Source: Azolla caroliniana (Eukaryota; Plantae; Polypodiophyta). Taken from it: a stretch of DNA of 64,000 nucleotides. Below the pieces are notes generated by a model. That model had not been told where the DNA came from. It saw only the letters and a list, made by a program, of their open reading frames with translations, and searched no databases. The DNA lies in assembly GCA_043228905.1 (NCBI GenBank), contig JBHGNT010000013.1, positions 11,222,001 through 11,286,000 of the forward strand. Reading direction: 5' to 3'. This document shows, one piece after another, positions 69 through 56,186 of the stretch. Within the stretch, counting starts at the first letter, position 1; each line of letters begins with the position of its first letter. The translations under genes and the position numbers were made by a program.

Positions 69-3000
69 CTACCTTTTCTTCCGTTTGGGCCTCGGTTGAT
101 TCAACGTATCTGAATCAAACATCCGAACCGACTCGGCTACCTCCGATCGGTTTTCGCTCTCATCTGAGTTGGTTGTCTCCAACTTGTCTTCGGTCTTCTC
201 GCCCTCGATGGCGTCATCTTCCCCATGCATGGTTGGCTTCGGCTCTCTCCTTCGGCTGTTCCCCTTCTGTCCGCTTCCGGACTTTTCCGCGGGTCCGCCC
301 TCGGCTTCTTCAGCCGATCCGAAGTCGAACTCGACAACCGACTCGGTGTCGCGGTCTCCGCTCCTTTCCTGCTGCCTTGCTTGGTTGTTCGGGACTATTC
401 TCCCCCTCAAGTTTGGCACGTCGAGGTGACGCAATCCGAGCGCACCGGAGAATTGCTACAACTTGTCCAGACCAAGAGGCTTAGTGAAGATGTCAGCAGT
501 TTGCCGATCCGTCGGCACGTACTGAAGTTCGATTTCACCGAAAAGGACACGCTCACGGACGAAATGGTAGTGCACCTCAATGTGCTTGGTCCGTGCGTGG
601 AAAACGGGGTTTTTAGCGAGCTGGATGCTGCTGAGGTTGTCGCAGTAGATCGTCGTCGGATCTGACACCTCCTCTTGCAGGTCCTTAAGTAGCCGCTTCA
701 ACCATATGGCTTCGCATGTCGCGACAGCCGCTCCTCAGTACTCAACTTCGGTGCTCGACAGTGCAATTGTCGGCTGCTTCTTACTGCTCCACGCGATCGC
801 GGCACTCCCGAGGGAGAACGCGTATCCGGACGTGGATCGGCGATCAGCGGCGTTGCCAGCCCAATCATCATCGGTGTAGCCGACTAACTGCACGACTGCA
901 CCGGTTTGATATAGCAGTCCCTGATCCTTAGTGCCGTTGACATACCGAAGTATGCGTTGTGCACACTGAAGGTGCTCCTTGGTAGGTCGCGCCATGAACT
1001 GACTGATCACCCCGACCGGATAACTGAGGTCGGGTTGGGTGATGGTCAAGTATATGAGGCTTTCGACAATTTTTCGGAACCTCGTCGGGTCGCATACCTT
1101 TCCCGTATTGGGACGAAGCTTGACGGTTCTGTCCAGAGGAGTCGAGACGAACTTACAGTCGGCCAACCCGAATTTGAAGAGCATAGTCAGCACGTAATGA
1201 CGTTGGCTGATCAATATGCCTTCGGGGGTACGGATCACTTCGATCCCGAGGAAGTAATGAAGGTCCCCCAGATCCTTCATGTCGAACGATATCGCAAGCT
1301 GGAGCTTCACGCGGTCGATTTCACCTAGGTCGGCGCCGGTGATGACCAAGTCATCAACATATAGTAAAATACTAACCGGTCCGAGTCGACCTTTCCGGAT
1401 GAACAGGGAAGAGTCCGATTTTGACGTGACGAAGCCCATCCGACGCAGTTGTTGCGTGATCTTCGTGTTCCAGGCACGCGGGGCTTGCTTCAGTCCGTAA
1501 AGGGACTTCTTCAGTCGGCATACTGCCGAGGAGTTCGTTCCGGAGTGAAATCCGGGGGGCTGTACCATGTACACCTGTTCCTCAAGGTCACCTTGCAGGA
1601 AAGCATTCTTTACATCCATATGATGTAAGTGCCACCCCTTCACCGCAGCTACTGCGAGCAAAACACGGACGGTCGTCATTTTCGCGATTGGTGCAAATGT
1701 CTCATCGTAGTCGATGCCGTGTTTCTGCGCGTAGCCTTTTGGCACTAGCTGAGAGCCTTGTACCGGTTGACCGAGCCATCAGTGTTGTACTTGACCTTGT
1801 ACACCCATCTACACCCGATCGGTTTTACCCCTCTTGGTGCGTCAACCAGGTCCTAGGTCTCGTTCTCCGCCAATGCGTGCATCTCTTCCTCCATCGCGGC
1901 ACGCCAATTCGCGTCTTTAGCCGCTTTTGCGTAGCTCTCTGGCTCACGCACTTTCGCTACACGGGTCATGTACGCATAATGATGCGCCATGTACTCGTTG
2001 TATCCGAACCGCAAAACAGGATTCTTCTGGCGGGTAGATCGGCGTAATCTCGCATTAGCCGATGTCGAGGCCTTCTCGGTCGACGCGGACTTCACCTTTA
2101 AAGACCCGTCACCGGTTCCCTCGGAGTCGGACTCGCGTTGGTCTGACTCGTTCCTATCCGTGCCGGAATCCGACACCTTCTTCTTCCCTTTCTCTTTGCG
2201 CGTAAGCCGTCTCCTCGGCTTCCTGCGCGGGGAATGCATGGCCGAGTCTCCACTACTCGCCGGCTCTTCATCGGACTGGTCGTACCGACTCAATCGTCTA
2301 ATCGGTCCACTTAAACGGAGTGAAATCGGACTCTCTTCGTGGGTCTCGATTTCGGGCTCATTCGGAGGCATCTCGGCCTTGCTGATCTCATCGTCAGAGC
2401 TCGGATTGGAGTCAGGTTTCGGAGTCGGGGACTGGTACCAGGACGCGGACTCGTCAAACACAACGCCGCGGCTAACACGCGCTTGTTTGGTGCGAGGATT
2501 ATAACACTTATAACCCTTCTGCTCGTCCGAGTAACCGACCAGGATGCATTTCTCGGCCTTTGCATCCAGCTTCCTCCTTTTCTCCTTCGGTACATGCACA
2601 TACGCAATGCTACCGAACACCCTCAAGTGTCGCAAGTTTGGCTTCGTTCCGAAATATAGCTCGTGCGCTGACACTTTGTCTCCGATCCGGTTTTGGATGT
2701 ATACCGCGGTCCTTACCGCCTCGGCCCATTAGAACTTGGGCAAGCTCTTCTCCTCCAGCATTGCCCGTGCTGCTTCCACAACTGACCGATTCTTCCTCTC
2801 GGCCACGCCGTTCTGCTCCGGCGTGTATCTACAACTGAATTCGCGCCGAATTCCTATTTGTTGTAGATAACCGTTGAATTGACCGGAAAAGTACTCTTTC
2901 CCGCCATCCGACCGCAGACACTTGATCTTTCGTCCCGTTTCCATTTCCACGAACCCTTTGAGGTCCCAGAAATAGTCGAAGACTTCGCTCTTCCTCTCAA

Positions 3001-4709
3001 TGAGGTAGATCCATGTGTGCCGCGTGTGGTCATCGATGAAGGAGACGAAATATCGGTTCCCGCCAAGACTAACGTTTTGTGCCGGCCCCCACACATCGGA
3101 GTGTATAAGGTCGAGCTTGTTCCGGCTCCGGTTTCACTTGTTGGGGAAAGGAAGTCGGTGTTGCTTCCCGAGCTGGTAGGCTTCACAAATTTGTGCCTTT
3201 CGGCCACTAAATTTGGGCAATCCGAACACTACCTGTTTCGATTGCAGATCTTGAAGCCGCTGGTAGTTGACGTGGCCTATCCGCTTGTGCCACAAGTTGA
3301 TGTCCGACTCGGTTTTTCTTCCCTTCGCGAACATTGCGGTGCCGCCGTCAGTGAAGTCGAGGATGAACATCCTCCCGTCTCTGCACCCTTGTGCAATCAC
3401 ACGGCCTTCTTCCTCAATGAAGCACCCGAGGTGTGTAAACCGAACCTCCATCCCTTGGTCGACGATCTGTCCGACCGAGACCAAGTTCTTCGTGATTGTC
3501 GGAACGTGCAACACGTTCATGAGCTTCCCTTTCTGCCTGACATGGCTAAGGGGAACTTCTCCAACATTCGCGATCGGATGCAGAGTGTCGTCTCCCGTTG
3601 CGACTACTCCAGGTTGTATCGGTTTTTCAAGGTACGAGAAACCACTCCTTATGGCTCGTCATGTGGTTTGACGCGCCGGAGTCTACGTACCACACCTCGT
3701 CCGATCTCGTGGTGTTCTGTTTCATTGAGTTTGCTTCGTGTCTCGTCACGAAGGCAAACCCTTCTCCGGCTCTCCCGGAGTCTTCGGCGTAGTGCGATCG
3801 CTGCCGATTTCCCTTGTCGGTATGTCCGGAGCCGTTTCCGGAACCAGTTCTCTCTGAATCGGCGCGCTTCTTCCAGCACTCACTTTCCCTGTGGCCTTTC
3901 TTGCCACAGTACCAGCACTCCGCGATGCCCTTCCCTTGCCGGTTCTCATCGCTTCGACTCCCCCTGTTTCCGGAGGGTCCGGAGTTGATGTCGGCATCAC
4001 TTCGATGCCTTCTTCCTTGATCTCGTCGGCCGCCTCCATTGCGCGCCGACTCGCCTCGTCCTCCACGTCCACGGGGCCTATCTCCCTCCGTGTACAGCAT
4101 TCTGCTGTCGGTGTGCGTGCTTGTAGACGCACCCGCTTGGTTCTCCTCTACCAGGAGCATTGACTGTAAGTCGAAAAAGGACGACGACGTATTCTCCCGG
4201 GTACACACAGCCATTCGGAACGCTCCGAACTTCGACGCCAAGCCTCCGAGACAGATCTGGACCATCTCGCTCTCCTCGATGTTCACCTCTATGGAGGCGA
4301 GGGAGTCGCAGATATCCTTGATCTTCGAGGTATAGTCCGCGATCGATAAGTCGCGTTGTCTTAGGTTGCTCAACTCCTGTCGGAGCTGAAGCTTCCTGGC
4401 TGTGGTGCTCGCGGCGAAAATCTTCTTTAGATTTTCCCACGCACCCTTCGGCGTCTTTGCATCCCGAACATAGCTCAATAGCTGTTCGCCCACACACGAC
4501 GTGAAGCAGTATAATACCCTGCTCGCCGATTGCTCCCACGATGGGAAGTCTCTGTGTGTCGATTCGGGTGCCGCGTCATTAGCTCCTTCGACATAACTCC
4601 AGTAGCCGTGCCCGAGTAGGTACTGGTGCATCTTGTAGGACCAAGACGCGTAGTTGGTTCTATCGAGCTTCTCTGTTGGAAGTGAGCTCGCCATGCCTTT
4701 ATCCATCAT
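69..4709 (-). pseudogene. gag-pol: Copia gag-pol polyprotein, broken by stops/frameshifts, with acidic C-terminal extension after RNase H
   Basis: ORF pieces 3627-4709 (gag with CWYCGKKGHRESEC knuckle, PR start), 3134-3520, 2729-3094, 1853-2674, 735-1745 (RT), 456-701 (RH), 69-434 (extension). Confidence 0.93.
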
Positions 4710-4766
4710 TCTTCTTGTTCTTCTTCGTCAAGCTGTGACGGCTGCAGAGAGGTTCTCAACCCTCGC

Positions 4767-4778
4767 GCTCTGATACCA
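4767..4778 (-). promoter_or_regulatory. Primer-binding site, tRNA-iMet (TGGTATCAGAGC)
   Basis: gctctgatacca on + strand directly adjacent to the LTR end. Confidence 0.9.
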
Positions 4779-5223
4779 TGTAGAAAGTAGCGTGCGGAAG
4801 CAAGTATGAAGACCGAACAAAAGGAAGAACGCTCAGGTTTAATGGAGAGCTTGAGCTTACACAATATACGAGGGAGAGACAGAGAGAGAGTGAGAGAGAA
4901 AACACAAGAACTATGTTCAACAAAACATTACTCAATCTCTATTCACCACTCTATACATATGTGTGTTCAATGAACACTTTTATACAAGTCCTAGAAGGAC
5001 TGACAGTACTTCAATGCTCATTAAGAGCTCCTACACTAACTCCCAAATATATTCCTCACAGAATATCTTTCCTAACGGCGTCCCGGTTTACGCACCGATC
5101 CGACCCTACCTACGCACCGGTTTGCGTACCGGTTTACGCATTCGGCCTAACCGATCGGTCCCAACCAATCCAGTCCTCGGCTTCTTCAGCCGATCCGGCC
5201 GATGTTGAGCTTGTCTCTCAACA
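4779..5223 (-). repeat. 5' LTR of Cop1 (TG...CA)
   Basis: Termini tgtagaaag...ctctcaaca, PBS-adjacent; homologous to the partial LTR at 53150-53397. Confidence 0.88.
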
Positions 5224-7312
5224 GAATGTTTATCAAACTCACATAGTAGTCTATCAAAAGAATCTCCCAAACTACAATTTTATTGGAAGGGCTAATTAAA
5301 GGCCACTTGAGTGGTGTGTTTTTGGATGTCAAGAATATTGGACCACCGCCTTGTGCGTGGTGTACATACACTTTTGAGTGTGAAATGGTGAGATATGAAT
5401 GCTAGGAGTAGAGGTAGAAAAAGGGGTATTTAATATAGCCTCCCCTCTCCTCCTCTCCCTACAATTAAAACCCCTCAAGGAGGATAATAAGAGTGAAAGG
5501 GAAACTCTAAGTGAGTGTGAACCTACCCTTCCCTCTCCTTCTCTCCCATATGATGAAGAAGCATATGAGATACATAATTCAAAACTAGGCCACCCTACTA
5601 TGGCACTAGTCTAAGAATATTAATTATTGTTAAGGAAAAGTATGGAGAGAAATAAGGAAGAAATGGTGATGGTCTTGTTGGCATAAAAGGCCAACTCCTT
5701 CCAATTTGTATCTTAGTGTGAACACGTCTAAATAGTTAGGGTTTAGTATATAAGCAATAACCTAATGTTGTAATAATAGAGCTTCTTCATCATTCTTGTA
5801 TCATGAGTCTCTGAGAGAGAGATAGAACGAATGCAATAATAGAGCTTCCATTAAAGCTTAAACCGTGTCTATCCTCTCTTGTATCTCCTTGCCTCCACTT
5901 TGTGTGTAGTTTGCTGAACACATACGACAGGTCCTCACACATACGTTTCCGCGCATATTCAACTACAACAACTGGTATTAGAGAGACTTGCGGTTTGATA
6001 GCAACAAACAACAGAAAAGTTGAAAGGAAAAAGACCAAGTCAGAAAAATCTCACTTAGAAGAAGAACATGGCTTCAACATTTGGAACAAGAGTTGAAATC
6101 AAAAAATTCGACGACAAAAACTTTGCCCTATTGAAGGAGATGATGCAAGATGTGTTGATCATCAGAAGACAAGTCGAAGCCATTTGACACAGTGAAAAAC
6201 ATGCCTCAATGATAGCTGAAGAATGGAGATCTATGGATGAAATTGCTCGCTCCACCATTTGAATGCACCTAGTCGAAAACGTCTACTTTAGTATGGGAGA
6301 AGCTACAAGCCATGTACGAGAAAAAGTCATCATCTTGAAAATTGATTTTTCTCAAACAACTGTTCAACATGATGATGAGAGAGACCGATCCGACTACCTC
6401 CCACATCAACACCTTCAGCCGGGTGTTGTAAGAACTCTCCTCACAAGGGATCAACTTCGAAGAAGAAGTGCTCTTCAAAGTTGATCCCCTGCCCTCCTAT
6501 CGAGCTTGTTGGCAAGTTGGGATGTATTTTGCATGACCTACGCCAATAACTGACCAATCCTAAATCTGGATGAGACAATCAGCCAAGTCCTCACCGAAGA
6601 CATTCAAAGAAAATCGATGGGACTCACCATCAATGAGTCGGCAGAAGCCCACCACTCGACCGAGCCGACCAATACATTTAGTTGATCAAGAGAGCAAGCC
6701 GATAGAACCAGTCGGAACACCAACCGATCGAAGATGAGGGGAGACCGACAATGGTCGAAGTTGAGAACAGGCCGATCAGGTGAAGTCTGCACACACTGCC
6801 GAAAATTTGGCCACAATGTTTCCGACGGCTGGTGGATCAAGAGGAAAGAGAGTGGTCGGCGATCCAAGCAAAATCGAGGACGACCCGACTCAGACCACTC
6901 TCCGATTGGCAACCAAATCAACGTTGCTGACACTCGATCAGGAGAAATTCTCTCATTAGAGGATTCAATGATCGGAGAAGTCCTCTACAGTGCACAAGAT
7001 GCACACACGTGGTTATTGGATTTGGGTGCCATATTTCACGTGACCCCAAACATCGAGTGGTTTTCAAACTATTCGGTCGGTGCCAACGGCACAATCCGAC
7101 TAGGCAATAGGTAGGTGTGTAGAATAGTAGGAGTTGGCAAAGTACCGATTCAATTGCCAAACGACAACACAATAATCTTCCATCAAGTCTGACATGTACC
7201 CGATCTGAAAAGAAGTTTGGTCTCCATCGGCATGCTAGCTGAAGATGGGTATCGAACGACTCTAAGTGAGTCGACATGGATGATCAACTAAGGAAACTTG
7301 AGGATAGGAGGC
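5224..7312 (+). mobile_element. Ty1/copia element CopE, 5' part (LTR remnant, PBS at 5973, degenerate gag-protease)
   Basis: caaca-ac-TGGTATTAGAG at 5966-5983; gag MASTFGTRVEIKKFDDKNFALLKEMMQD from 6069; knuckle CTHCRKFGHNVSDG; protease WLLDLGAIFHVT. The LTR start is not defined. Confidence 0.8.
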
Positions 7313-7616
7313 TGTCCTAATATGGCAAGACTCGAACCCACTACCTTATATTATATGGGTCGAGCTCTTGACCATTAGACTATATGTTGTAATATGAAGG
7401 ATATTATTTTCATTTAAGTTTTACAATAGAAAATTGATGTATATTCTAGATTTCTTTCGAACATTCTAGAAACTTCAGGAGTACTCCTGAGAACACTATA
7501 AAAGGAGGCACAAGGCATTATTTCGAACCAAATCGGTTCAATGCTAGTCTTAAGCCTCCTAGCTACTAATGTATATTCTCTTAACATAATATATATCTTT
7601 TGTTATCATCATTCTT

Positions 7617-7649
<33 letters not shown>

Positions 7650-7790
7650 GAGTCTCTCTCTCTCACTCTTTCCTTCTCTCGAGAGTTCTACACCTCCCTT
7701 AGTACTAATCCTCATCTTTTAGTACTAATTCCTTCTCTGTCTTAATACTGTTCCTGACAGTACGTCTTTGTCTTAGTATTGCTCTTGATA
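7313..7790 (+). repeat. 5' LTR of ChrA
   Basis: Matches 25915-26292 and 28635-29095; TATA box TATAAAA at 7497; (CT)n tract ~7620-7665. Confidence 0.9.
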
Positions 7791-7792
7791 GT

Positions 7793-7805
7793 TTGAACCG
7801 ATTTG
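7793..7805 (+). promoter_or_regulatory. Non-tRNA PBS complementary to LTR R region (putative self-priming site)
   Basis: TTGAACCGATTTG is the exact reverse complement of CAAATCGGTTCAA at 7529-7541, ~30 nt downstream of TATA. Confidence 0.75.
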
Positions 7806-7884
7806 TCTTCTTCCTTCTCTTCCTTTATCTTCTTACTTCTCCTTCCCTTCATACTAATCTCTTATTCCTCTTTTCTCTCATACT

Positions 7885-9015
7885 ATGGCCACTGTTAGCA
7901 CTCAAGGATATCAATCCGTTTTTTCGGAGTTGCAATGCTTGAAAGAGAAGTTTCTCGCATTGGAACAAGAAAATCAATGGTTGTTGGGGGAACTTCAACA
8001 AATCTCCTTAGAGAAGCAACATACGCAACAACAACACGGGGAACTAGTGTTACGGGTGCAACAACTCGAAGCAACCATAGTAGCAATGCAACAACAAGGA
8101 CCTAGTACGTAAGGGGTTCATAAAGAACCCAAGATCGGCCATCCCATGAAATTTGATGGAACACGATTGCAGTTTAGAGGATTCCATAATCAAGTACAAT
8201 TAGTCATTCAAATGCATCATGCTCGATATCCCACCGATGCATCACGAGTGGGTTTTGTAGGCACGTTGTTAAGTGGCTCAACTTTGGCATGGTTCACTCC
8301 GTTGTTAGAAAAGGAATCTCCTTTACTAAACAATTTTGAAGAGTTTTTAAGTGAGTTTAAAGCTTGTTTTGGAGATATTGACAACATAAGGACAACAATC
8401 AACAAATTCCGACGATTACGTCAAGGTGATCGTCCAGCCTCCATATACGCTGCAGATTTCCGCCTACTCACCTCCTATATCCCATGGGATGACCAAGCAC
8501 TTATGGAGCAATTTCGTTATGGTCTACATAACGATGTCAAGGATTTACTCTTGACCTTGATGGAAGCAATCAGTCGCGCAGTGAGATGCAACAACCGTCT
8601 TTTAGAACGACGTTCGGAATGTCAGTTCCAGATGCCAAGGGCAAGATCAGAGCCCACCTATGCCTCAGTGGTAGCAAAACCTTTTCCAAGGGAGTCATAT
8701 AATGCGTCTCCAGTGAATACTCCAACTCCGATGGAAATTGACACTACACGTCGTCACAGATCATTATTGGAAGAAGAAAAGCAGCGACGCTAAGCAAATC
8801 GACTATGTCTTTATTGCGGTGGAGCAAGGCATATTGCAGTGAACTGTCCCCATAGGCCAAGAAGACAGTCGAACCAAATAGTTGCTAGTTCTAATTGTAC
8901 TAAACCCGAGTCTATTTCAGTAAGAATATCTGATAGTCCTAATAGTACTAATAGCCCAAATCTATCGAACAAATTTGATGTCCTTAGTCACTTAAAAGAA
9001 GAGTTAAACGACTAA
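7885..9015 (+). pseudogene. gag: Chromovirus Gag (coiled-coil N-terminus, capsid, CCHC knuckle)
   Basis: ORFs 7885-8112 and 8146-8793; PTPMEID motif; CLYCGGARHIAVNC in frame after a premature TAA; terminal stop after EELND. Confidence 0.9.
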
Positions 9016-9055
9016 GTTCAGCCAAAATAGGAGCCGTTTGGTTGGAGAACCCTAG
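9003..9055 (+). promoter_or_regulatory. Putative -1 ribosomal frameshift signal (G_TTA_AAC + stem-loop/pseudoknot)
   Basis: Slippery heptamer in gag frame one codon before the stop; the -1 frame is open into protease; stem 9017-9026/9037-9046. Confidence 0.65.
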
Positions 9056-9472
9056 ATCTGTGCAGCCCATTAGTGGTTCCATTCCCTCTAAGCAAGTTAG
9101 TAATGTGTTCTTAGCCCAAGTAACCATTAGTACTAAAAGTACCTCTCTAGTACATGTCTCAACACTCCTAGATTCCAGAGCTAATTCTTGCTTCATGGAT
9201 AGGAATTTTCCCAAGGTCATCAGATATCCCTAAGGAAACTCCCGTGTCTAGTCTCTGTAGTAGTCATTGATGGTCGTCCTATTGCTTCCGAAAATATCAT
9301 AGAAGAGTCAGAGCCCATTAATATTGTCCTAGATAATTTAGCGTGTGTAGTATCCTTTAATATAACTAGTATCCTAGAACATCCCATTGTTTTGGGATTA
9401 CCATGGTTCAAATTACATAACCCAGACATAGATTGGAGAATAAGAGAAATCCGGTATCGACAAACCCGAGGA
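9016..9472 (+). pseudogene. pol: Chromovirus aspartic protease (ChrA)
   Basis: LLDSRANSCFM (degenerate DSGA) and IVLGLPWF motif; homologous to 40566-40949. Confidence 0.85.
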
Positions 9473-10521
9473 CTCCACTATATATAAGAAGGTTGTATCA
9501 CGTGCGTTCATGACATCATTTATAAACCCCTTATACATATGTTTTTTACTATTTTAGTGACCCTTGTGTAGAAAAAAGATTAATAAAAATACCCCTTATT
9601 ACGAATATATTTTTTGATAATCACCCATTTTAAATACCCTTACATATAAAATATACATGCACACATAGTTTCTATTCCTAGACAGGATCAATGACCGTCT
9701 TTACAATTGATGACTCGCAAAATTATGAATCAACATTAGACATCATATGCAAATTCCTAGAAATGCTTCATCAAGTGCCACATAGATTGAAAACACAATC
9801 TGTAAAGTTCAAAGTAATGCACACACAATTAGGAAACATTACCCAAAAACACTAGAGGTATAATATATACAAGCCACATATAAGTTTTTGTTTTTAGTTT
9901 ATTGAGACGTATGAAGAATAGACTGATAAAAAACAATGTAATTTACAATAAAACAATCTTGAACTTAACATATATATCTCAAAAAACACACATGGAACAA
10001 TCTAAAATGCATATCAATAATGAAATTACTAACAAATTAACATTATGTTTGGTTTCATGGATAGACTCATATGAAGCCATACCATTCTTTTTTCTCAAAC
10101 ACATTGATCAAACAAATGACAACCTACTTCATATTTCCATTTGAAATGTAAGACATCATCTATTCACACATTCTTACCCCAATCAAAATGAAATAAAATA
10201 AATCATTTTGTTATTGCAATATCTACTTAAAAGACTTATTACAATAAAGGTTGCCCTTATAAAGACCAACTATATAAAAAGAAAACCCTAAGAAGTTCAT
10301 TTTAGGCTATAAATTTCATGTCGTTTCCATCTTCAACGTTGGACCTGTATTATAACATGTAACAACAAAGGCAAGAAAACTTAATATACATGGAAGTAAA
10401 TAATATCTTAAAGAAATCAGAAAATATATTTGGAATACCGTATGTTTATATTTGGTTTCTACTCTTTTCTCCTTTTCCTATTAAAATAAAAGGCATAAAT
10501 ATTAAGTTACTTTAATATATA

Positions 10522-13500
10522 TTATATATGTACATGTATGCAAGTATATAATTCAAAACAACTTATATATACATACCTGGATTTCATTTCCAAAAGAAAA
10601 TTGTTGAAAACTTTACAATCACTTCCGTCTAACAGATAATTATCACATTTTGCATTATATGTGAGGTTCGCTAGTCCAATAATTGACTCAAAGTCAACCA
10701 TTTTTATATTTGTCAAATCATATGCAAATAATCTACTCCCTTTAATCTTCCTATACCAACCTAGTTGTAATTGAACATCTTCAAGCCTATCCATCAAGTC
10801 AATTCCTCTCTTGTACTCCACAAATTTATTTCCAATATTTCTTCGCATCCTTTGTACTCGTCCTAAGTACCAAACAACATTTTCATTTGATATTCCTTTT
10901 CTTTTGGGTCTTGTTGAATTAACATCTTCTTCAATAAAGAATACAACGCAATCTAAACCAATCCCAATTAGGAAATTATTTGCATTCTCACATGAGTAGA
11001 AGACCCCTTCTCTTACACGTGTGAGTCTATCCTTTGACAATGTTGGATTACCATTTAGATGACTCACAAGTGTTGATTTAAATATAATCTTATCATCCAC
11101 TTGAACAAATGAAGAGACTTTAGAGTTCACATTGTTGCCATCCAATATAACATCCAATTCATGGCGAATTTCACTTATTGCAATCTCATCATCATTCTCC
11201 ACACATTCATGCATTGTTAAGTTTTTATTGTGTTCAACACATTCTTCATCATCTTTCTCTCCATATATATAACTCAAGGATTGTTTTGTCTCAATCCCGG
11301 GATAATTCCACCATTGCCCATTGAGTTTAGGCTTCATATTTAACGACTCACATAAAATTTGGGCTTCTTTTAAACCTTCTTTAAGTGCAAAAACAAGTTG
11401 ATCATCATTTGAGATATCAATGTAGTCTTGTAAGTTTGCAAGAGGCTTGCCATGCATGAAATTGAGTTTAGACCATATTGATTCTTGCTTCTTGTGAGCT
11501 TTTGGAAAAACCAATCCACTATCACTGCACTCAAATTTGGCAAGCTTGTTTACATTTCCACTACAATGCAAAACATCTGATATATCAAATGCACGCTCCA
11601 TGCCAATCATTCCCCCTATTTTACTAAAAAATATCTCAGCTCCATCAGACCCTGTGAGATGCAATGGACATTCTAGTTGTGGATAAAAGTCACGAAACAT
11701 TTTTATAAGTAAAACTACAAAGTGACAAGATATTTGTACATCCAAAAATGTTTCCCGACTAATGAAATTGCTTTTTAAATTATAAATTGGATTATTTAGA
11801 ATCCATAATCTCCATATTTGAAAGAAGAATGCAACTTTAGATGCAAGTACCACACGCTTGAATAAGCTTTCATGAGGGGATAGAAAAATATCAATATAGT
11901 CACCTAATATATGCAAGTATACATGTGTTCCCAAAGCTCCTCTTTCTCTTACTTTGACACCTTCTCCACCTTGGTATAACATCTTTAAACAATTAGTAAC
12001 ATTTCTACTTGCAATTCTTTGGGCTCCAGCCCAATTTTGTCTATCTTCTCTCTTAATATCACATTCCCTTAAGCCACGTGCATCGATAGAGAAGTTATTA
12101 TATACCAATGACACATGATTCAATGTGATCCATACATCTCCGATTACTAATTGTCTTGAGGGATTATCGAGTGCATTCACAAGTTTCTTTCCATTATGGA
12201 TGAAATCTTGATCATGAAGACAACTTACCATATCATTATGCATTTGACCTGTGAAGATCCAACCATCCCAAGGCAATTTATATCTTAAGCATATGCTTGG
12301 GGTTAAGTAATCTTGAGGCATAATCTTTCTTCTCCTACTATCTCCATCTGATGCATGTCCAACAATTGGCACAATACTTGTGGATAGGTGTTTTTCCCAT
12401 AGAGTTTCCAGTTCATTCCATTGGCATTTTACAAAATCCACATCAAAGCAATTACATGTACATTGTACAACCAATACTAATCGTGGAAGTTTAGGGTGAA
12501 GAGGATTCACAATTAACACCCTAGCATAGTGTCCAACCACATAGTCTTTAAAGGAGCTAACAATGGTTTCATAACCAACATTAGAGTCACCCACCTTTAT
12601 CATACATGATGAGACAATTGATGATTGGATGACTTCAGCCCACAAAAACCCAAAAGTAAATCATTTGAGCTATCCCACTTAACATTCCGCTTAATCATAG
12701 TCTCATCCTCGGCAATAATGAAAGGAACCTTTGTTATAATGCCATGCACTCTTTTTTCATTTTCATAAATCTTAGCCACATCCTGGAATATATATTCATG
12801 GATCCCTAGAAGGAATTTAGTTGTCTTCCTCTCAACTCTCTTTGTAGTGCTTAATGATGGTCCATCTAAATTTTTAGAAACAAAGTCGTGTAATCTTGGT
12901 CCACCCCACATTTTTTTCATGAAGAAAATTGCCTTAGATGTGTCTTTGAATCGTTGTCCAGCTAGCTTTTGAGTAAGGTTTTGTGCAACATCTGTCAAGA
13001 AATCCCATAATGCATTCTTTCCACCAAAATTTCCAGCTCGATGAGCCACAATAATGTTATTACAAAATCTTCGAACATCCTTCTGTTCCACACTCTCAAG
13101 GGATGCTTACTTGAGAGTCATTACCTTTACCGAAAGCATTGCAATGTTGCAAGCTAGCCACCATATTTGTCTATGAGCGTGACGGATAGTTTGCTTAGAA
13201 CTTGAAATTTCCTTTCTTGTCTCTTCTTAAGTAAGATAATCTAGTCGCCTACCCTCCCTAGTTCCTCGATTACCTCTTTTGACTTTAGCCCCACGCTCCC
13301 TATACACCCTCATATGGAAATCATTACATTTTGGAATTTCAGTACATTTTTCACATGTAAGATTATGAAAGGGTTCTTCAAGCGTCGATACTCTTTTACA
13401 ATCAAAATGGTGAAAACATCCATCAATAACACACTGTTGCATCTCGTACATCACAACAGCTTTTGTGTAAGGCTCAGAGAATCATAAGGCTCCATGATTT
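10522..13500 (-). pseudogene. P-element/THAP9-like DDE transposase (~1000 codons, two stops and one frameshift)
   Basis: Motifs in order: AEDETMIK...WD...LLGFCG, HASDGD, DQDFIHNGKKLVN (DxxHxxK), EDRQNWAGAQRI, GSDGAEIFFS. 707-aa open segment 10522-12645; splice-donor-like CAG|GTATGT at 10576. Confidence 0.7.
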
Positions 13501-14229
13501 TGATCGATGAGAAATGATTTTACATGTATCTCAAGTCTCCCTTTACTTTGTGTTACACTTAAGGTTATGCTTTTTTATTGTTTACGGTTTAATCATTTTA
13601 TTAGTTTTTATGTTTAGCCCCCACCACGCCCCAGCCCCCTTCCCCTTTCTCCCTCTCTTTCATTTTTTAATTAGTGTCACAAAATGTGAATATAAAGGTT
13701 TGAACTTGTGACCTTCAAACAATGGTCTTACACTTCAACCATTGCACCAACTCATTTTCATTAATAAATACATTTTCATATTATTATTATTCAAGAACTG
13801 TAGAGCACTAGACACATTAGATGATCGCCAAATGGCATGCACCCTGTACGCCAAGTGGCGCACAACATGTATGCCAAATGGCGATCATGCACATTTTGAT
13901 GTTCAATATATAAGTCAAAGATCTGCTTAGTGTTGAACCATTCCGGTTCAACACCAGTCTTCAGCAACCTTGTAATCTCGGTTTCCGGTAATAGAAATTC
14001 TTGTATTTTTGTCTTGTAAACGTCTTCTCGTTTGTTATTATCTTCTTTTCTTCATCTGATGGAGTGTTCGTGGGTTTAGGGTTTCCGACATCCCAACTTG
14101 ATGTGCTTGATGGTTCGTGTGGCGCTCCTTAACTAGTATAGCTACTAGCACTTGATCTAGGGTTTAAATGCTTACTGACAACATACTTTTCATAGCCTCC
14201 CTACATCATTTCGAGCAATTCCAAAGAAT

Positions 14230-14453
14230 TCTTCTTTAAAGTGGCAGTAACGTGTTTGAAGAGATAACACAATAGCTTCAAGTTGTTGGACACGTTTCGA
14301 GAGTTCCTCATGTTGTTGTGCCTTTTCAATGCTCACTTGTTGCAAGTCGCCAAGAAGTTTATGATTCTCTTGTTCCAATGCAACAAATTTTGTTGTTAGG
14401 AGGTCAAGTTCTGAGAGAATACGCATATACTCTTGTTTACTGACGGTCTCCAT
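14230..14453 (-). pseudogene. gag: Inverted Gag N-terminal fragment of ChrB
   Basis: METVSKQEYMRILSELDLL...LEQENHKLLGDLQQVS is homologous to ChrA Gag MATVSTQGYQSVFSEL...LEQENQWLLGELQQIS but on the opposite strand to ChrB pol. Confidence 0.85.
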
Positions 14454-14484
14454 TGTGACGGAAAAACTTCACTAGATACTCGAG

Positions 14485-17252
14485 AAAAAAAAAAGTGGGC
14501 TCTTTACGTTTGGGCGTAGATTATCAAGGCTTGAACAAGGTTATGATTCGAAATCGATATGCTCTACCATTGATTCCAAATCTCTTGGAACGTCTCAATG
14601 GGGCCAAATACTTCACAAAGCTAGACTTACGAGGAGCTTACAACCTTGTTCGTATTCGACCTGGTGATGAATGGAAAACTGCTTTTCGCACACGATATGG
14701 TCATTTTGAGTACACAGTAATGCCATTCGGGCTTACAAAAGCTCCAACAATTTTTCAATATATGGCAAATGATATCTTTCGAGATTTCCTCGATATCTTC
14801 ACGATAATTTACTTGAATGACATACTAATCTATTCAAAGACACAAGAGGAGCATAATAATCATGTTAACAAGTTCTACAACGATTACGGGAATTTGGTCT
14901 TTATGCCAAACTAGAGAAGTGTTGGTTTGACCGCAATCAAGTCGAGTTTCTAGGGTATATGGTCTCTCCAGAAGGTATTTTAATGGATCCAAAGAAAGTA
15001 CAAACAATTCTAGATTGGAAGACACCAGGCTCAGTTCGTGATCTGCAATGTTTCTTGGGATTTGCGAATTTCTACCGCAAGTTCATCAAGAGTTACTCAA
15101 AAGTTGTTTTGCCCCTCACGGAACTAACATAGAAGAACCGACCATTTGTATGGACATCAAGCACAACTGATGCATTTAATAGCTTGAAGCAAGCATTTAC
15201 ATCTGCTCCCATTTTGGTCCACGTTGACCTTAAAAAGCCGTTTATCATAGAAGTAGATGCATCTGATTTTGCACTAGGAAGTGTTCTATCACAAGTAGCG
15301 GATGATGAGAAATTACATCCAGTTGCATTTCATTCAAGAAAGTATGAACCTGCAGAAATCAATTATGAAATCCATGACAAAGAATTGTTGGCAATTGTTG
15401 ATTCTTTCGGACAATGGCGTCACTTCTTGGAAGGTTCTCCCCACCAAATTATTGTTTACAACGATCATAAAAAGCTCACATACTTTCAAAATGCTCGAGT
15501 TCTAAATCGACGACAAGCTCGATGGGCACAATTTCTAACACGGTTCAACTTTGTGATAACATATCGACCAGGAACACAACAAGGTAAAGCTGATGCCTTA
15601 TCAAGACGCTCTTATTTTGCACCAAAACCGGGGGACCCAACTTACGACAATCAAGGTAAAGCTGATGCCCTAGTCGTGTACGATTAATGGTGACAAATGT
15701 TGCTGAGACAACTTTGGATTCAAAATTTCTCGATTCTATTCGCTCGAGCATTGGTTCAGATGATTTTGCACAAGATATTTTAGACCACATTGTTCCAGAT
15801 CGTGCTTCTTGTTCACGCTCCAAGTTTTCTCGCATGGATTATGGGAACTTCAGTTGGCATGATGGGTTGTTTTTTCGAAACAACCGTACTTATATTCCCA
15901 ATGGACCTTTTTGACTTGAAGTCTTGCATCACTGCCATGATTCACCGCTAGCTGGACATTTCGGAGTTTTGAAAACATTAGAGCTAGTTACCCGAAACTA
16001 TTGGTGGCCTCAGGTTCGTCAGTTTGTCATAAACTATGTTTCTACTTGTGATGTATGTTGTCGATCAAAGATGCCTCGACATCGGCCATATGGTTTGTTG
16101 CACCCATTGCCCATTCCAGATGGTCCGTGGAAATCCATTTCTATCGATTTCATCACAGATCTCCCATCTTCCCAAGGCTATGATGCAATTCTTACAGTGG
16201 TGGATCGCTTTACAAAAATGGCACATTTTCTTCCATGTAGAAAAACTTTTACTAGTCAAGAATTGACAAGTCTTGTTATCCGAGAAGTTTTCAAGCACCA
16301 TGGCCTTCCAGATGAAATCATTAGTGATTGTGGACCACAATTTATTGCAAAGTTTTGGACACACTTACTTGAGAGCCTTGGAATTTCTCGTAAACTATCT
16401 TCAAGCTACCATCCTCAAACCGATGGGCAAACGGAACGCACAAATCAAACATTAGAACAATATCTCTGTTGCTTTATCAACTATCAACAAGATGATTGGA
16501 TGGATTTCTTACATATGGCAGAATTTGCTTACAATAATTCAATCCATTCTTCTACGGGATTCACTCCGTTCTTTGCAAACACAGGATATCATCCTTGATG
16601 GATGATGCTCAAATGTCCAAAAGTCTCAAAAAATCCCACGGTCAAAGATCGTCTAGAAAAACTCAAAGAAATTCAAACCAACCTTTCTCACAATTTGCTT
16701 CATGCTCAAGCCAAGTACAAGAAGATGGCGGATAAACATCGCTTAGATTCTTCATTTGAAGACCCTAAGTTTAAAGTTGGTGATCGTGTTTGGTTATTGC
16801 GTCGTAATGTGAAAACTACTCGACCAAGTGTCAAATTGGATTTCCAACGTCTAGGTCCATTTGTAATCTCTCATCAAGTCAATGATGTTGCATTTCGTCT
16901 GGACCTACCTTCACATATGCGTCTTCATCCAGTATTTCATGTTTCATTATTAGAACCATGGACATCAAGTTCTATTCCAAATCGGGTTATCCCACCACCA
17001 CCTCCGGTTCAACTTGCTGAAGGACCTGAATATGAAGTAGAAGCTATTTTGGACTCTAAGGTCATCTGCAATAAGTTATATTATCTAGTAGATTGGCTAG
17101 GATACATGCCTGCGGATCAGACATGGGAACCTGCAATGAACGTCACTAATGCCTCTGAACTTATACAAGAGTTTCATCTTCGTTATCCCCATAAACCAAA
17201 ACCTAGTTCATGCATTGTGACTCATGGAACTCGTCGTCAAAGGAGGGGATGA
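14485..17252 (+). pseudogene. pol: ChrB pol: RT, RNase H, integrase, chromodomain
   Basis: [65 protein letters not shown]...YYLVDWLGY...TWEP. Confidence 0.95.
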
Positions 17253-17667
17253 TGTCACAAAATGTGAATATGAAGGTTTGAATTTGTGACCTTCAAACAA
17301 TGGTCTTACACTTCAACCATTGCACCAACTCATTTTCATTAATAAATACATTTTCATATTATTATTATTCAAGAACTCTAGAGCACTAGACACATTAAAT
17401 GACCGCCAAATGGCATGCACCCTGTACGCCAAGTGGTGCACAACATGTATGCCAAATGGCGATCATTCACATTTTGATGTACAGTAAATAAGTCGAAGAT
17501 CTGCTTAGTGTTGAACCATTCCGGTTCAACACCAGTCTTCAGCAACCTTGTAATCTCGGTTTCCGGTAATAGAAATTCTTGTATTTTTGTCTTGTAAACG
17601 TCTTCTCGTTTGTTATTATCTTCTTTTCTTCGAAATTGACCTTGTCTTCGAAGCTTGGGTCGTGACA
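17253..17667 (+). repeat. 3' LTR of ChrB
   Basis: Near-identical to 13675-14053; TG...CA termini. Confidence 0.92.
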
Positions 17668-17859
17668 ATTAGTATGTTAATCCTCTACCCTTGCACGTCT
17701 TCTTAATACCTACTCCCGTCTCTTCGTATACACCAAGCACTCTATCAATTCGGGTGCGCTCAATCGACCTTGGTGTTCCTCTTCTCTGATATCTCCTCCT
17801 GCCTGCCGATGATCCACCATTTCCGCACTCCTCGTCTACAACCTCGCGGTCAACAATAA

Positions 17860-18222
17860 TCTACTCATAAGATTGCAACCATTTCGCTACATCAATTGCG
17901 TGAGGAAAGACAAAAGGAAGAAATGTTTCTCTTTGCGGTATCAGTAAAACCCTCCAACACCACTAAAGAGGAGTCCACCATTCAACTTCTAGAGAACTAT
18001 CGTCATTATGCCGATGTGTTCAATAAAGTACAAGCCAATATGCTTCCTCGCTATCGATCGTATGATTTCCCCATCGATTTACAACGGGGAAAAGAGCTAC
18101 CATGGGGACCGATCTACAATTTGTCAGCAACCGAGCTAGAAGTCCTTTGAGCCTATATAAAGGAGAATTTGGCAAATAGTTTCATTCGACATTCAAAATC
18201 TCCAGCCAGCGCACCCATTTTC
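17860..18222 (+). pseudogene. pol: ChrA pol resumes (RT N-terminus)
   Basis: YADVF...[16 protein letters not shown]...SKSPASAPIF; continues at 23368 as [11 protein letters not shown]. Confidence 0.9.
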
Positions 18223-18977
18223 TAACAGGACTACACGCTCCCGGAAACAACGCTTGGCCACAACCGAGTCTAGGACCAAACACAGAAAAACGGGTAATGT
18301 ACGCAATACACAATAAAGAGAAGAGTACACAGGATGTTTACGTGGAAAACCCAAACACGGGAAAAACCACGGCAGTCCACAGACTGCAAACTATCACTAT
18401 GTTACAATATACAATAGATGAACACAGAGGCAACGACCTCTTGTTCACTGTCTTCGCCACAGGCGGCGGTTACAACAGAGACAACGTCCTCTTCGTCTCT
18501 CACTCTCTCTCTCTTTGTACACGGTTGCACTCAAATCTTGCACCAACAAGAAAGACAACTATTGCTCACTAAGTTTGCCCTAAGTCATATTTATACTAAT
18601 ATGACTTTTCGGCTATTTACAAATATAGCCCCAATGGACTCTCAGAAACATATTTACGAATATGTCCCTTCATCTGGTGAGCACTCCTCACCGGGCCTGC
18701 ATCATCCGACTCTTGCCGGGCACTCGTCATCCGGTTCTCATCGGGTCTTCACCATCCGGCTCTTGCCGGGCACTCGTCATCTGGTTCTCACCGGGTCTTC
18801 ACCATCCGGCTCTTGCCGGGCACTCGTCATCCGGTTCTCACCAGGTCTTCCGTTGCCGGGTACTCGTCATCCGGTTCTCACCGGGTCTTCCGTTGCCGGG
18901 TACTCGTCATCCGGTTCTCACCGGGTCTTCTGTTGCTGGGTACTCCTATCCCATCCAGAGGGATCTGTTTCCTAACA
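18223..18977 (-). repeat. 3' LTR of CopD with CCGG-rich ~50-bp and 40-bp tandem units
   Basis: Repeated catccggttctcaccgggtcttc units ~18700-18945. Confidence 0.92.
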
Positions 18978-18990
18978 AACTCCCCCTTCA

Positions 18991-22660: not shown

Positions 22661-22690
22661 TTTCTGTGTCGTTTCGCTTTGATACCACTT

Positions 22691-25914: not shown

Positions 25915-26292
25915 TGTCATGACATGGCAAGACTCAAACCCATTACCTTATGTTACATGGGTCGAGCTCTTGACCATTAGACTATATGTTGTAATACGAA
26001 GGATATTATTTTCATTTAAGTTTTGCTATAGAAAATTGATGTATATTCCAGATTTCTCTGGAACATTCTAGAAACTTCAGAAGTACTCTTGAGTACACTA
26101 TAAAAGGAGGCACAATGGTTATCATCATTCTCTCTCTCTCTCTCTCTCCCTCTCACTCACTCACTCACTCTTTCCTTCTCTCGAGAGTTCTACACATCCC
26201 TTAGTACTAATCCTCATCTTTTAGTACTAATTCCTGCTTTGTCTTAGTACTGTTCCTAACAATACTTCTCTGTCTTAGTACTGCTCCTAATA
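25915..26292 (+). repeat. 3' LTR of ChrA (~100-bp internal deletion removing the R/self-primer segment)
   Basis: Aligns to 7313-7790 but jumps from ggaggcacaa to ttatcatcattc. Confidence 0.88.
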
Positions 26293-28634: not shown

Positions 28635-30031
28635 TATCATAATATTGCAAAACTTGAACCCATGACCTTATGTTACATGGGTTGAGCTCTTGACCATTAG
28701 AATATATGTTGTAATACATAGGATATTATTTTCATTTAAGTTTTACTATATAAAATTGATGTATATTCTAGATTTCTCTGGAACATTCTAGAAACTTCAG
28801 GAGTGCTAAGAACACTATAAAAGGAGGCACAAGGCATTATTTCGAACCAAATCAGTTCAACGTCAATCTTAAGCCTCCTAGCTACTATTGTATATTCTCT
28901 TCACATAATATATATCTTTTGTTATCATCATTCTCTCTCTCTCTCTTTCTCTCTCTCTCTCACTCACTCACTCTTTCCGTCTCTCGAGAGTTCTACACCT
29001 CTCTTAGTACTAATCCTCATCTTTTAGTACTAATTCCTTCTCTGTCCTAGTACTGTTCCTTACAATACTTCTCTGTCTTAGTAATGTTCTTGAAAGTTTG
29101 AACCAATTTTCTCTCCTTCCTCCTCTTCCTTTTATCTTCTTACTTCTCCCTCCCTTCATACTAATCTCTTATTCCTCTTTTCTCTCATACTATGGCCATT
29201 GTTAGCGCTCAAGAATATCAATCTGTCTTTTTGGAGTTGCAATGCTTGAAAGAGAAGTTTCTCGCATTGGAACAAGAAAATCAACGGTTGTTGGGGGATC
29301 TTCAACAAATCTCCTTAGAAAAGTAGCAGACGCAACAACAACATGGGGAACTAACGTTACGCGTGCAACAACTCGAAGCAACCATAGTAGCGATGCAACA
29401 ACAAGGACCCAGTACCCAAGGGATTCATAAAGAACCCAAGATCGGCCTTCCCATGAAATTCGATGGAATGCAATCGCAATTTAGAGGATTCCTTAATCAG
29501 GTACGATTAGTCATTCAAATACATCCTTCCCGATATCCCACCGATGCATCACGAGTGGGTTTAGTAGGCACGTTGTTAAGTGGCTCCGTTGTTAGAAAAG
29601 GAATCTCCTTTATTAAACAATTTTGAAGAGTTTTTAAGTGAGTTTAAAGCCTGTTTTGGAGATATTGACAGCATAAGGACAACAATCAACAAAATTCGAC
29701 GATTACGTCAAGGTGATCGTCCAGCTTCCACATACGCTGTAGATTTCTGCCGATTCGCCTCCGTTATCCCGTGGGATGACCAAGCACTAATGGATCAATT
29801 TCATTATGGTCTACATAACGATGTCAAGGATTTACTCTTGACCTTCCCCAAAGAACGAAAGTCATTGACAGAAGAAATCAGTCACGCGGTGAGATGCGAC
29901 AACCATCTTTTTGAACGACGTTCGGAATGTTAGTTCCAGATGCCAAGGGCAAGATCAGAGCCCACCTACGCCTCAGTGGTAGCAAAACCTTTTCCAAGGG
30001 AGTCATATAATGCGTCTCCGGTGAATACTCC
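28635..30031 (+). mobile_element. Truncated chromovirus ChrC (ChrA family): 5' LTR 28635-29095, degenerate self-priming PBS, gag
   Basis: Highly similar to 7313-8725; breaks at ~30031. Confidence 0.9.
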
Positions 30032-33612: not shown

Positions 33613-33673
33613 AAGGAGAAAGATACAAGAACAACTAGGAGGCTTAAGACTGGCGTTGAACCGAATTGGTTCT

Positions 33674-38746: not shown

Positions 38747-38940
38747 GTTCTCAATAATGCCATGTGCCTCTTTTTATAGTGTGCTTAGGAGTATTCTTGA
38801 CATTTCTAGAATGTTCTAGAGAAATCTACAATATACATGGATTTCCTAAGTGAAATAATCAATGAAAACAATATTTCTCATATTACAATGTATAGCTTAA
38901 TGGTAGGGCTTCAACCCATGTGACATGGGTTCAAATCCTT

Positions 38941-54273: not shown

Positions 54274-56186
54274 GATGATAACAGATGATATATTATATGA
54301 AGAGTAAGTACAAAATGACTATGAGGCTTAAGATTGACGTTGAACCAATTTGGTTCAACCTAATGCCTTGTGCCTCCTTTTATAGTCTTCTCAAGAGGAG
54401 TCATGAAGCTTCATGTTCTAGAGAAATCTGGAATATACATTAATTTCCTATAATAAAACTTAAATGAAAATAATATCCTACATATTACAAGAGATGGAAT
54501 AATGGTCAAGAGCTCGACCCATATAACATAAGGTCATGGGTTCGAGTCTTGCCATATCATGACATTATCCCCCCCTTAAGACAACGAGTGTAACGAGTCA
54601 GCGCTGATTGAGGACCGGGTTTGTTTGGATATTGTCGGTGGAAATCAGCAAGAAGATCCTGAGCATTGGCGACATGCTCGACGGGTTCCCAAGTATGTTC
54701 GCTCAAACTATAGCCAAGCCAATCGACCAAATAATAAAGTTTGTTGCGAACAAATTTGGAGTCCAGGACGGTAGCAACTTCATACTCCGGGCCGACGTCT
54801 AACTCAAGCGGGGGCGGCGCTAGTGTAACACGATTGGGAATAGTGTTTGCTTTATAAGGTTCAAGAAGAGAACTATGGAAGACTGGAGGAAGATCAAGGC
54901 GGAATGTGACATCATTAACCTTACCGGTAATACAAAAAGGACCAAGTCGTTGATAATACAACTTGTCGCATGGTCGAGTAGACTTGATGTGACGACGTAA
55001 GAGCCATACTCGATCTCTGATGGCAAAAGAGGAGGGAAGCCGATGATGATCCGCATAAGTCTTCTATGTGTGTTGAGCATGAAGAACATGACTAGAGAGA
55101 TCCATCTGGATCTTGCGTAGCCTCTCCAAATGATCCTCGGCATGAGGATTGGTTGGTGGCTCCGGGGTGTCAATCACAGACCAGCGAGGATGAGAACCAG
55201 TATAAGCATAAAATGGGGAGACCCAAGTCGAGGAGTGAATAGCGTTATTATAAGCAAACTCCGCAAAGTGGAGAATATCAGCCCAATCATCCTGCTGATA
55301 ACTCAGAAAACACCGGAGGTATTGCTCCAATGTTCGATTTGTTCGTTCCACCTACCCATCGGTCTAGGGATGGTAGCCGGAGGAGAGGTTACAAGAGACC
55401 TTGAGCATCTTGAAGAGATGCTTCCAAAATTTGGAGACGAATTGAGGTCCTCAGTCATTGACGATACTGTTTGGTAGGCCATGATGCCGAAATACCTCAC
55501 GCATGACAAGGGCGAAGGTTTTCTCACTAGTGATGGCCTTAGTACACGGCACAAAATGTGCCATCTTAGTATATCGATCAACGATGGTTAAGATAGCATC
55601 GAAACCATGCGAGCCCGGCAGATCTGTGATAAAATCAAGACAAATAGACTGCCACGGCTTACTTGGAATCTAGTGGAGTGTGAAAAATCCGCGTTGTGTG
55701 CAAACGTGTTGGTCCCAAGATTACCTGCTTTTGATTATCAAACGATGGAACATCAAGACAAGGTGCAAGATATTAACACCATGATAGTGCATCTACTTTT
55801 ACTTGCTGCTTCCTCGGTCGATATGTGATTTTCAAGTCAAAACGCGTGAGGAATCGGGCCCACCGAGCTTGCCGTCGATTTAGTACACAAGCATTCTGGA
55901 AATAAGCAAGGTTTTTGTGATCACTGAAGACGAGGACCTGATGTGGAGAGACCTCTAAGAAGTGCCTCCATTGCACAAATGAATCCACAATGGCTAATAA
56001 CTCCTTGTCATGTATCTCGTAGTTGATTTCCGCGGCATCAAATTTGCGCAAATGGAAAGCCACAGGATGTAACTCTTCTTCATCTCCTTGTTGAGAAAGG
56101 ATGCTACCGAGGGCGAAATCCGATGTGTCGGCCTCCATGATGAATGGTTTGTTTATATCCACATGAGCTAGAATAGGAGTTGATAT
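54115..56186 (-). mobile_element. Chromovirus ChrJ 3' half: RH, integrase, chromodomain, PPT, 3' LTR 54115-54564
   Basis: EADTSDFALG, ERTNRTLEQYLR, YEVATVLD...DWLGY...TWEP; PPT AAGGGGGGGATAA; LTR similar to ChrA. Confidence 0.9.

What the first reader, a model, noticed from the sequence alone, without database searches (positions are those of the whole stretch)
7497..7805. tRNA-independent self-priming signature in a plant chromovirus
Seen: every copia here with an intact leader has a tRNA-iMet PBS, but ChrA does not. Two nt after its 5' LTR sits TTGAACCGATTTG (7793-7805), the perfect 13-nt reverse complement of CAAATCGGTTCAA (7529-7541), which begins 32 nt after the TATA box at the expected transcription start. 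ChrC shows the same pair in decayed form (28848-28860 / 29098-29110). Established: S. pombe Tf1 primes reverse transcription with the first 11 nt of its own mRNA, folded onto the PBS and cleaved by RNase H. Inference: this family uses the same mechanism. I cannot check whether that is already described for this lineage.
Basis: partly seen in the sequence, partly recalled or inferred. Interest (0 to 1): 0.8.

Follow-up and report, generated by a model that had tools for sequence, protein, structure and literature searches.

The report
Self-priming Tcn1-type plant retrotransposon
A dead copy of a plant jumping gene has, where others bind a host tRNA, 12 bases that match the predicted start of its own RNA, and dozens of relatives keep the match with different letters, so it likely primes its own copying as yeast Tf1 does, a mechanism already predicted in print for this group.

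Summary
Observation confirmed. The mechanism is likely right but already predicted in print. ChrA is a decayed, nested Ty3/gypsy chromovirus (7313-26292, duplication GAGGC). Its primer site is the exact complement of 7529-7541. The working duplex is probably 12 bp (7530-7541 / 7793-7804); the 13th pair occurs in 1 of 37 elements. Across 37 elements with 18 primer-site variants, the LTR word and the primer site change together (7.39 of 8 free positions paired versus 3.68 permuted, 0 of 100,000). The word starts 32-35 nt after a TATA-like box in all 37. The family looks like Tcn1 (RT 80 of 100 residues identical to SM-Tcn1 by eye), for which Neumann 2019 predicted self-priming in 83% of 1500 elements. 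My searches found that hairpin in no paper. This scan noted both it and Tcn1 self-priming earlier on other genomes. No transcript start or cleavage was tested.

The parts
7308..7312 (+). Left target-site duplication GAGGC (right copy 26293-26297)
7313..7790 (+). 5' LTR of ChrA (TG...TA; canonical CA end decayed); 347 of 378 aligned bases identical to the 3' LTR
7497..7503 (+). TATA box TATAAAA, 33 nt before A7530
   Evidence: spacing 32-35 nt in 37 of 37 elements
7523..7529 (+). U3 arm TCGAACC, a partial copy of the primer site; GAACC can pair with GGTTC of the primer (5 contiguous bp here, 9-13 bp in 13 of 37 relatives)
7530..7541 (+). Predicted self-primer AAATCGGTTCAA, the predicted first 12 nt of the RNA (start inferred, not mapped)
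7542..7551 (+). Post-primer motif (CACCAGT-like in relatives, decayed here) predicted to pair with the U5 end next to the primer site
   Evidence: most contig depth reads C at 7542 and 7545
7741..7792 (+). Tandemly duplicated U5-terminal unit (about 31-nt period) plus the GT spacer 7791-7792; other copies go from the first unit straight to the primer site
   Evidence: joints and loose ends at 7761
7793..7804 (+). Primer-binding site TTGAACCGATTT (G7805 adds an incidental 13th pair)
7885..9467 (+). gag (capsid domain, zinc-knuckle-like motif) and start of pol, broken by stops and frameshifts
   Evidence: Pfam PF03732, PF19259
17872..18223 (+). Next piece of ChrA pol, cut off by nested insertions
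   Evidence: blastn to L002 and L004
23366..25914 (+). Rest of ChrA pol: RT, RNase H, integrase, SH3_Tf2-1 and a chromodomain with Y/W/Y cage residues; broken
25915..26292 (+). 3' LTR of ChrA; lacks the 86 nt matching 7514-7599, which hold the U3 arm and the primer word
28849..28860 (+). ChrC primer word AAATCAGTTCAA (decayed sister copy)
29098..29109 (+). ChrC primer site TTGAACCAATTT, 10 of 12 pairs
13930..13954 (+). ChrB (distant family) U3/primer hairpin, 10-bp perfect stem; second copy at 17508-17532. ChrB's own primer site is lost; its relative L012 has the matching TTGAACCGGAAT
54338..54360 (-). U3/primer hairpin (9-bp stem) in the 3' LTR of another copy of the ChrA group

Best explanation
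ChrA is a dead Ty3/gypsy chromovirus, likely of the Tcn1 clade, whose family likely primes reverse transcription with the first 12 bases of its own RNA instead of a tRNA. Shown: the 12-nt LTR word is complementary to the site after the 5' LTR, and the two change together across relatives. Inferred: transcription starts at A7530 (C|A, 33 nt after TATA). The RNA's 5' end folds onto the primer site, a second short duplex (post-primer motif with the U5 end) stacks beside it, the element's RNase H cuts after the final CAA, and RT extends that end into U5 and R, as established for Tf1. Covariation would be kept both by selection and by copying, because the new primer site is copied from whatever served as primer. 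The U3 arm is an optional extra. It would exist only in the 3' copy of the repeat in the RNA, where it could hide the second primer copy.
For: Exact complement, not chance. Full Watson-Crick pairing over the 10-12-nt word in 26 of 37 elements; 5 more have one G-U, 4 one mismatch, 2 two mismatches. On 23 distinct pairs, 7.39 of 8 non-anchor positions pair versus 3.68 +/- 0.35 permuted, 0 of 100,000; on five merged classes 1 of 120 permutations. Three loci first dropped for lying near a contig end (L007, L029, L051) all match perfectly over the 11 nt tested, two through single compensatory changes against their sisters. TATA-like box 32, 33 or 35 nt before the word in 37 of 37. Predicted helix probability 0.8 or more in 27 of 34 leaders, 0.95 for ChrA. 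Second duplex: five pairs kept in 33-37 of 37, one of them switching C-G / U-A / U-G (55 of 20,000 permutations). The published SM-Tcn1 shows the same layout by eye. Tcn1 self-priming is predicted in PMC6317226; the Tf1 mechanism is summarised in PMC7175516.
Against: No RNA start, cleavage or cDNA end was observed. The anchors were chosen after seeing the first hits and L028 was located by complementarity, so the set is not blind; the second-duplex columns overlap the anchors, and positions 8-10 together are not significant (1550 of 20,000). The TATA search was confined to 20-40 nt upstream, and the C|A start had three allowed positions. 7 of 34 leaders fold otherwise (P under 0.8). Four loci with a primer site and over 700 nt upstream (L017, L018, L023, L047) show no matching LTR word; they look like cut LTRs. 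Many loci are collapsed high-coverage contigs, and three use the 3' LTR. The third pretzel duplex was not found. Host tRNAs could not be searched, as no genome is held.
Confidence: 0.9

Rival explanations
1. A host tRNA, half-tRNA or T-loop-ended fragment primes. GGTTCAA resembles the tRNA T-loop word (recalled consensus GGTTCRA), and the LTR match would be secondary.
For: 7-8 nt likeness to the T-loop word in ChrA's group. Neumann's table gives tRNA-Met for 5% of Tcn1 elements.
Against: No TGG start; 18 primer-site variants each matched in cis by their own LTR; most classes lack the T-loop word; no tRNA gene in the window and no Rfam match in 7300-7900 at E up to 5.
Confidence: 0.04
2. The duplex is real, but the RNA starts upstream of it, so the pairing is a packaging or translation structure, or the primer is cut out on both sides.
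For: The start is not mapped. In SM-Tcn1 the complement runs to 15 nt by eye, and to 13 nt in ChrA.
Against: Pairing stops at the A of C|A in 36 of 37 elements, at a fixed TATA distance. With 26 nt of U3 kept, the predicted helix falls to 0.1 or less in 7 of the 27 leaders that otherwise form it, so an upstream start would harm those families.
Confidence: 0.05
3. On the U3 arm alone: it is a neutral by-product of template switching or quasi-palindrome correction during reverse transcription, not a selected masking device.
For: Stem of 9 bp or more in only 13 of 37, and only 5 bp in ChrA. The own primer is the best partner in only 4 of 10 primer classes. In L006/L009 the primer and primer site changed but the arm did not follow. 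No arm seen by eye in SM-Tcn1. Tf1 cDNA often carries single-stranded PBS ends that could seed copies (PMC11042837 passages).
Against: Strong stems occur in three separate gag lineages with unrelated primer words. Class-level permutation 83 of 3,628,800. In L029 one base change appears in primer, primer site and U3 arm together. Copying would also give that pattern.
Confidence: 0.5
4. Chance match.
For: None beyond the shortness of the word.
Against: 0 of 3000 shuffles exceed 10 nt; covariation.
Confidence: 0.005

Closest known systems
Plant Tcn1-clade chromoviruses (REXdb, Neumann et al. 2019, PMC6317226; passages and Additional file 5 read; Additional files 1 and 3 too large to read)
   Same: Chromodomain with cage residues, 5-bp duplication, no tRNA-type site, 10-nt or longer complement between the post-LTR site and the 5' LTR (their criterion); self-priming predicted for 83% of 1500 elements.
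   Different: The passages read give no covariation test, TATA spacing, second duplex or U3 hairpin (the word 'hairpin' occurs 0 times in the main text). This family's exact sequence may or may not be in the unread files.
SM-Tcn1 of Selaginella moellendorffii (Novikova et al. 2010, PMC2864245; passages and sequence supplement read)
   Same: By eye: RT 80 of the first 100 residues identical to ChrA's; the same layout of a 12-nt word ending CAA plus CACCAGT, then LTR end TGACA, GT, and the complementary site.
   Different: That paper reported no evidence for tRNA priming or self-priming, yet its own sequence holds the match. Different primer letters; no U3 arm seen by eye.
Tf1/Tf2 of Schizosaccharomyces pombe and the Tf1/sushi group, with the 'pretzel' leader (passages of PMC7175516, PMC4600332 and bioRxiv 2022.12.06.519325; of the primary Levin papers, the two I tried were not held)
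   Same: A 5' RNA word pairs with the post-LTR site; similar length (10-12 versus 11 nt); a flanking duplex between post-primer sequence and sequence next to the site; SH3_Tf2-1 and chromodomain.
   Different: Tf1 priming is shown by experiment, here it is only inferred. The third pretzel duplex was not found. A U3 copy of the primer site was not described in the passages read.

Membership tests
Chromovirus (Ty3/gypsy) | gag, then protease-RT-RNase H-integrase order, with a C-terminal chromodomain | tested here: met
   Pfam on window ORFs; ChrA pieces co-linear with L002 and L004; RT translation
Tcn1 clade | RT/RH/INT phylogeny groups with Tcn1 references | tested here: inconclusive
   No tree with named references could be built. 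By-eye count: 80 of 100 RT residues identical to SM-Tcn1; no other clade's RT was compared
Tcn1 clade | Group I chromodomain with aromatic cage (Y, W, Y) | tested here: met
   EYEV...LVDWLGY in 3 of 3 window chromodomains. The cage also occurs in Chlamyvir and Galadriel, so it is not exclusive
Tcn1 clade | 5-bp target duplication | tested here: met
   GAGGC for ChrA, ATTAG for ChrB
Tcn1 clade | Post-LTR site complementary to 10 or more nt of its own LTR, no tRNA CCA match | tested here: met
Tcn1 clade | Host is a non-seed plant | tested here: inconclusive
Tf1-type self-priming | RNA 5' end coincides with the primer word | not testable with these tools
   Only contigs were available; inferred from TATA spacing
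Tf1-type self-priming | RNase H cleavage releases the primer, which RT extends | not testable with these tools
   Needs biochemistry or particle cDNA
Tf1-type self-priming | Three-duplex pretzel leader | tested here: inconclusive
   Central and upstream-side duplex predicted and partly covarying; no conserved duplex 3' of the site

The most novel reading that the evidence does not exclude
Self-priming retrotransposons face a problem that tRNA-primed ones lack: their RNA carries a second copy of the primer at the 3' end. Several Tcn1-like lineages have evolved a primer-site copy between the TATA box and the start site. It is absent from the RNA's 5' end but folds over the 3' primer copy and blocks it from competing for the primer site. 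It tracks primer changes base by base (L029), making it an undescribed cis-element of reverse transcription.
Probability: 0.4. Interest if true: 0.6.

Novelty: new member of a known kind. Interest (0 to 1): 0.3.

Why it matters
The main claim is not new: self-priming was predicted for plant Tcn1 elements in 2019. This work adds comparative support (compensatory changes across 18 primer-site variants), a simple sequence grammar that predicts start and cut site, and a correction to the 2010 statement that SM-Tcn1 shows no sign of self-priming. If the U3 hairpin is functional, it would explain how self-priming elements keep the two copies of their primer apart, and it is testable with a few paired mutations.

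Tried and rejected
No whole genome is held, so host tRNAs and genomic copies could not be searched. Viral contigs gave no relative. The run search listed no RNA holder; contigs from runs guessed as RNA were laid but cannot show a start or expression. A motif search of the SM-Tcn1 supplement gave 0 hits only because the file is in blocks of ten; reading it showed the motifs. ChrA versus ChrC as covariation evidence: rejected, both differences fit CpG decay. A 13-bp duplex as the family norm: rejected (1 of 37). A local ACTGT/ACAGT stem at the U5 end as a universal feature: not kept across families. A per-element shuffle test of the U3 arm was significant for few elements, and not for ChrA (p 0.21). 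Rows dropped before the count: of 79 loci, 35 entered the set of 37. The 44 left out lacked one or both anchors or lay too near a contig end; 13 of them with a primer site were re-examined: 3 perfect, 1 decayed (L069), 9 without a matching LTR word (4 with under 150 nt upstream, L025 with other repeat sequence upstream, 4 apparently cut LTRs). Searches for a printed U3/primer hairpin listed no paper on it; most were seen as listings only, and subscription papers such as Butler 2001 are not held.

Full report
Observation. The two 13-mers are at the stated places and are exact reverse complements. The upstream one starts 32 nt after the first T of TATAAAA at 7497; the downstream one starts after a GT spacer behind the LTR end at 7790. 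Expected chance hits in the LTR are 6e-6, and no shuffle of 3000 gave more than 10 nt. ChrC pairs at 10 of 13 positions, with core mismatches at CG sites. The copia comparison holds where checked (one exact and four one-mismatch tRNA-iMet-type sites; motif recalled) but was not tested for every copia.

Anatomy. ChrA runs from 7313 to 26292, with the 5-bp duplication GAGGC and LTRs identical at 347 of 378 aligned bases. Its coding region is in three pieces (to 9467, 17872-18223, 23366-25914) split by nested insertions, co-linear with metagenome relatives L002 and L004. It holds gag, RT, RNase H, SH3_Tf2-1 and a chromodomain, broken by stops and frameshifts. The 3' LTR has lost 86 nt that include the primer word. 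The family is highly repeated: 2174-4821 contigs were laid in each of four runs under three species labels. Nearest named homologues of two window proteins come from a fern and liverworts, so the host is probably a non-seed plant (inference).

Covariation. Using two anchors, CAACACCAGT in R and TGACAGTTTG at the LTR end, both chosen after a first look, 35 loci gave both parts; with ChrA and ChrC that makes 37, or 34, 32 and 25 clusters at 95, 90 and 70% leader identity. The word pairs fully in 26 of 37. On 23 distinct pairs, 7.39 of the 8 positions outside the anchor pair, against 3.68 when permuted (0 of 100,000); on five merged classes, 1 of 120. All of positions 4-11 show changes on both sides, and five of them (6, 8, 9, 10, 11) show three or four Watson-Crick pair types. 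Three loci first dropped for lying near a contig end all match perfectly over the 11 nt tested; L007 and L029 do so through single compensatory changes against their sisters. Four loci with a primer site and long upstream DNA lack the word and look like cut LTRs. Pairing ends at an A preceded by C, giving 12, 11 or 10 nt by lineage; ChrA's 13th pair is private. A TATA-like box lies 32 (21), 33 (13) or 35 (3) nt upstream, as expected if the word is the start of the RNA.

Mechanism. Established for Tf1: the first 11 bases pair with the PBS and RNase H cuts between bases 11 and 12 (PMC7175516, passage), within a three-duplex 'pretzel' (bioRxiv 2022.12.06.519325, passage). Inferred here: start at A7530, a 12-bp helix (probability 0.95 in ChrA's predicted leader, 0.8 or more in 27 of 34), and a cut after CAA. 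The conserved motif after the primer is predicted to pair with the U5 end beside the site: five pairs are kept in 33-37 of 37, one switching between C-G, U-A and U-G (55 of 20,000 permutations), though these columns overlap the anchors and the wider test is not significant. No conserved duplex was found 3' of the site. From general knowledge of LTR replication, the new PBS is copied from the primer, so a PBS that follows its own LTR across lineages is itself a footprint of self-priming. A tRNA primer cannot explain 18 site variants each matched in cis.

The U3 arm. Between TATA and the predicted start, several LTRs carry a copy of the primer site's first bases, forming a hairpin with the primer word. 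The stem is 9 bp or more in 13 of 37 and 7 or more in 16, but only 5 in ChrA; the cost of opening the primer ranks in the top 5% of local windows in 11 of 36. Across 10 primer classes, own arm-primer pairing beats permutation (83 of 3,628,800), driven by 4 classes. Strong stems fall in three gag lineages with unrelated words, needing at least four gains or losses on well-supported branches. In L029 one base differs from its sisters in primer, site and arm together. Against: L006/L009 changed primer and site but not the arm, the other classes show weak or no arm, and SM-Tcn1 shows none by eye. Because U3 is transcribed only at the RNA's 3' end, the hairpin would hide the second primer copy; keeping U3 abolishes the predicted primer-site helix in 7 of 27 leaders, though not in ChrA. 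Function (about 0.4) and copying by-product (about 0.5) cannot be told apart from sequence. I saw the hairpin, before consulting earlier notes.

What is known. Neumann et al. 2019 state that most Tcn1 elements lack tRNA-type PBSs and are predicted to self-prime (passages), 83% of 1500 (supplement 5), by a 10-bp complement rule. Novikova et al. 2010 found no priming signal in SM-Tcn1 (passage), but its supplement shows by eye the same layout as ChrA, and its RT is identical at 80 of the first 100 residues. With cage residues in 3 of 3 chromodomains and 5-bp duplications, Tcn1 membership is likely, though no reference tree was possible. Six searches listed no paper on the U3 hairpin; the primary Tf1 and sushi papers and two REXdb supplements could not be read and may bear on that. 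This scan earlier reported Tcn1 self-priming in a peat moss and the U3 hairpin in three other genomes; these are unchecked notes, not support.

Verdict. A real, well-supported self-priming signature in a new member of a clade where it was already predicted. Interest 0.3; the hairpin is the only part that could rank higher.

Noticed in passing
window 13675-17667 (ChrB): Rearranged sister element with duplication ATTAG: its 5' LTR is cut at about 14053, the primer site is gone, and leader plus gag start (14258-14499) lie inverted, breaking right at the 3' edge of where the primer site sits in L012, with microhomology to RT.
   Followed up: partly
window about 38750 and 33610-33672, minus strand: An LTR of the ChrA group is split at its U3/primer hairpin: U3 ends near 38750 and R resumes near 33672, with a copia element and 170 nt of other DNA between.
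   Followed up: partly
window 10522-13106, minus strand: 712-aa open frame without Pfam match (next frame has a weak nSTAND3 hit), 94% identical to a 1122-aa protein in a 58-member cluster, with relatives in ferns, liverworts and animals; nested inside ChrA and probably a mobile element gene.
   Followed up: partly
window 53800-54100, minus strand: The chromovirus 3' LTR ending near 54117 abuts coding-like DNA with a GHTHDHIDQ motif (DUF7869/transposase-like, recalled).
   Followed up: no
window 30600-30835 and 31463-31973: Arrays of a 30-nt tandem unit flank a copia solo-LTR-like piece at about 30819-31488.
   Followed up: no
L056, L065, L072, L074 leaders: In this lineage the primer site is predicted to pair with sequence downstream in a long alternative hairpin that competes with the primer helix; possibly a switch.
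   Followed up: no
PMC2864245 supplement (SM-Tcn1 positions about 395-515): The published element holds a 15-nt LTR/PBS complement that the paper said was absent (by eye).
   Followed up: yes
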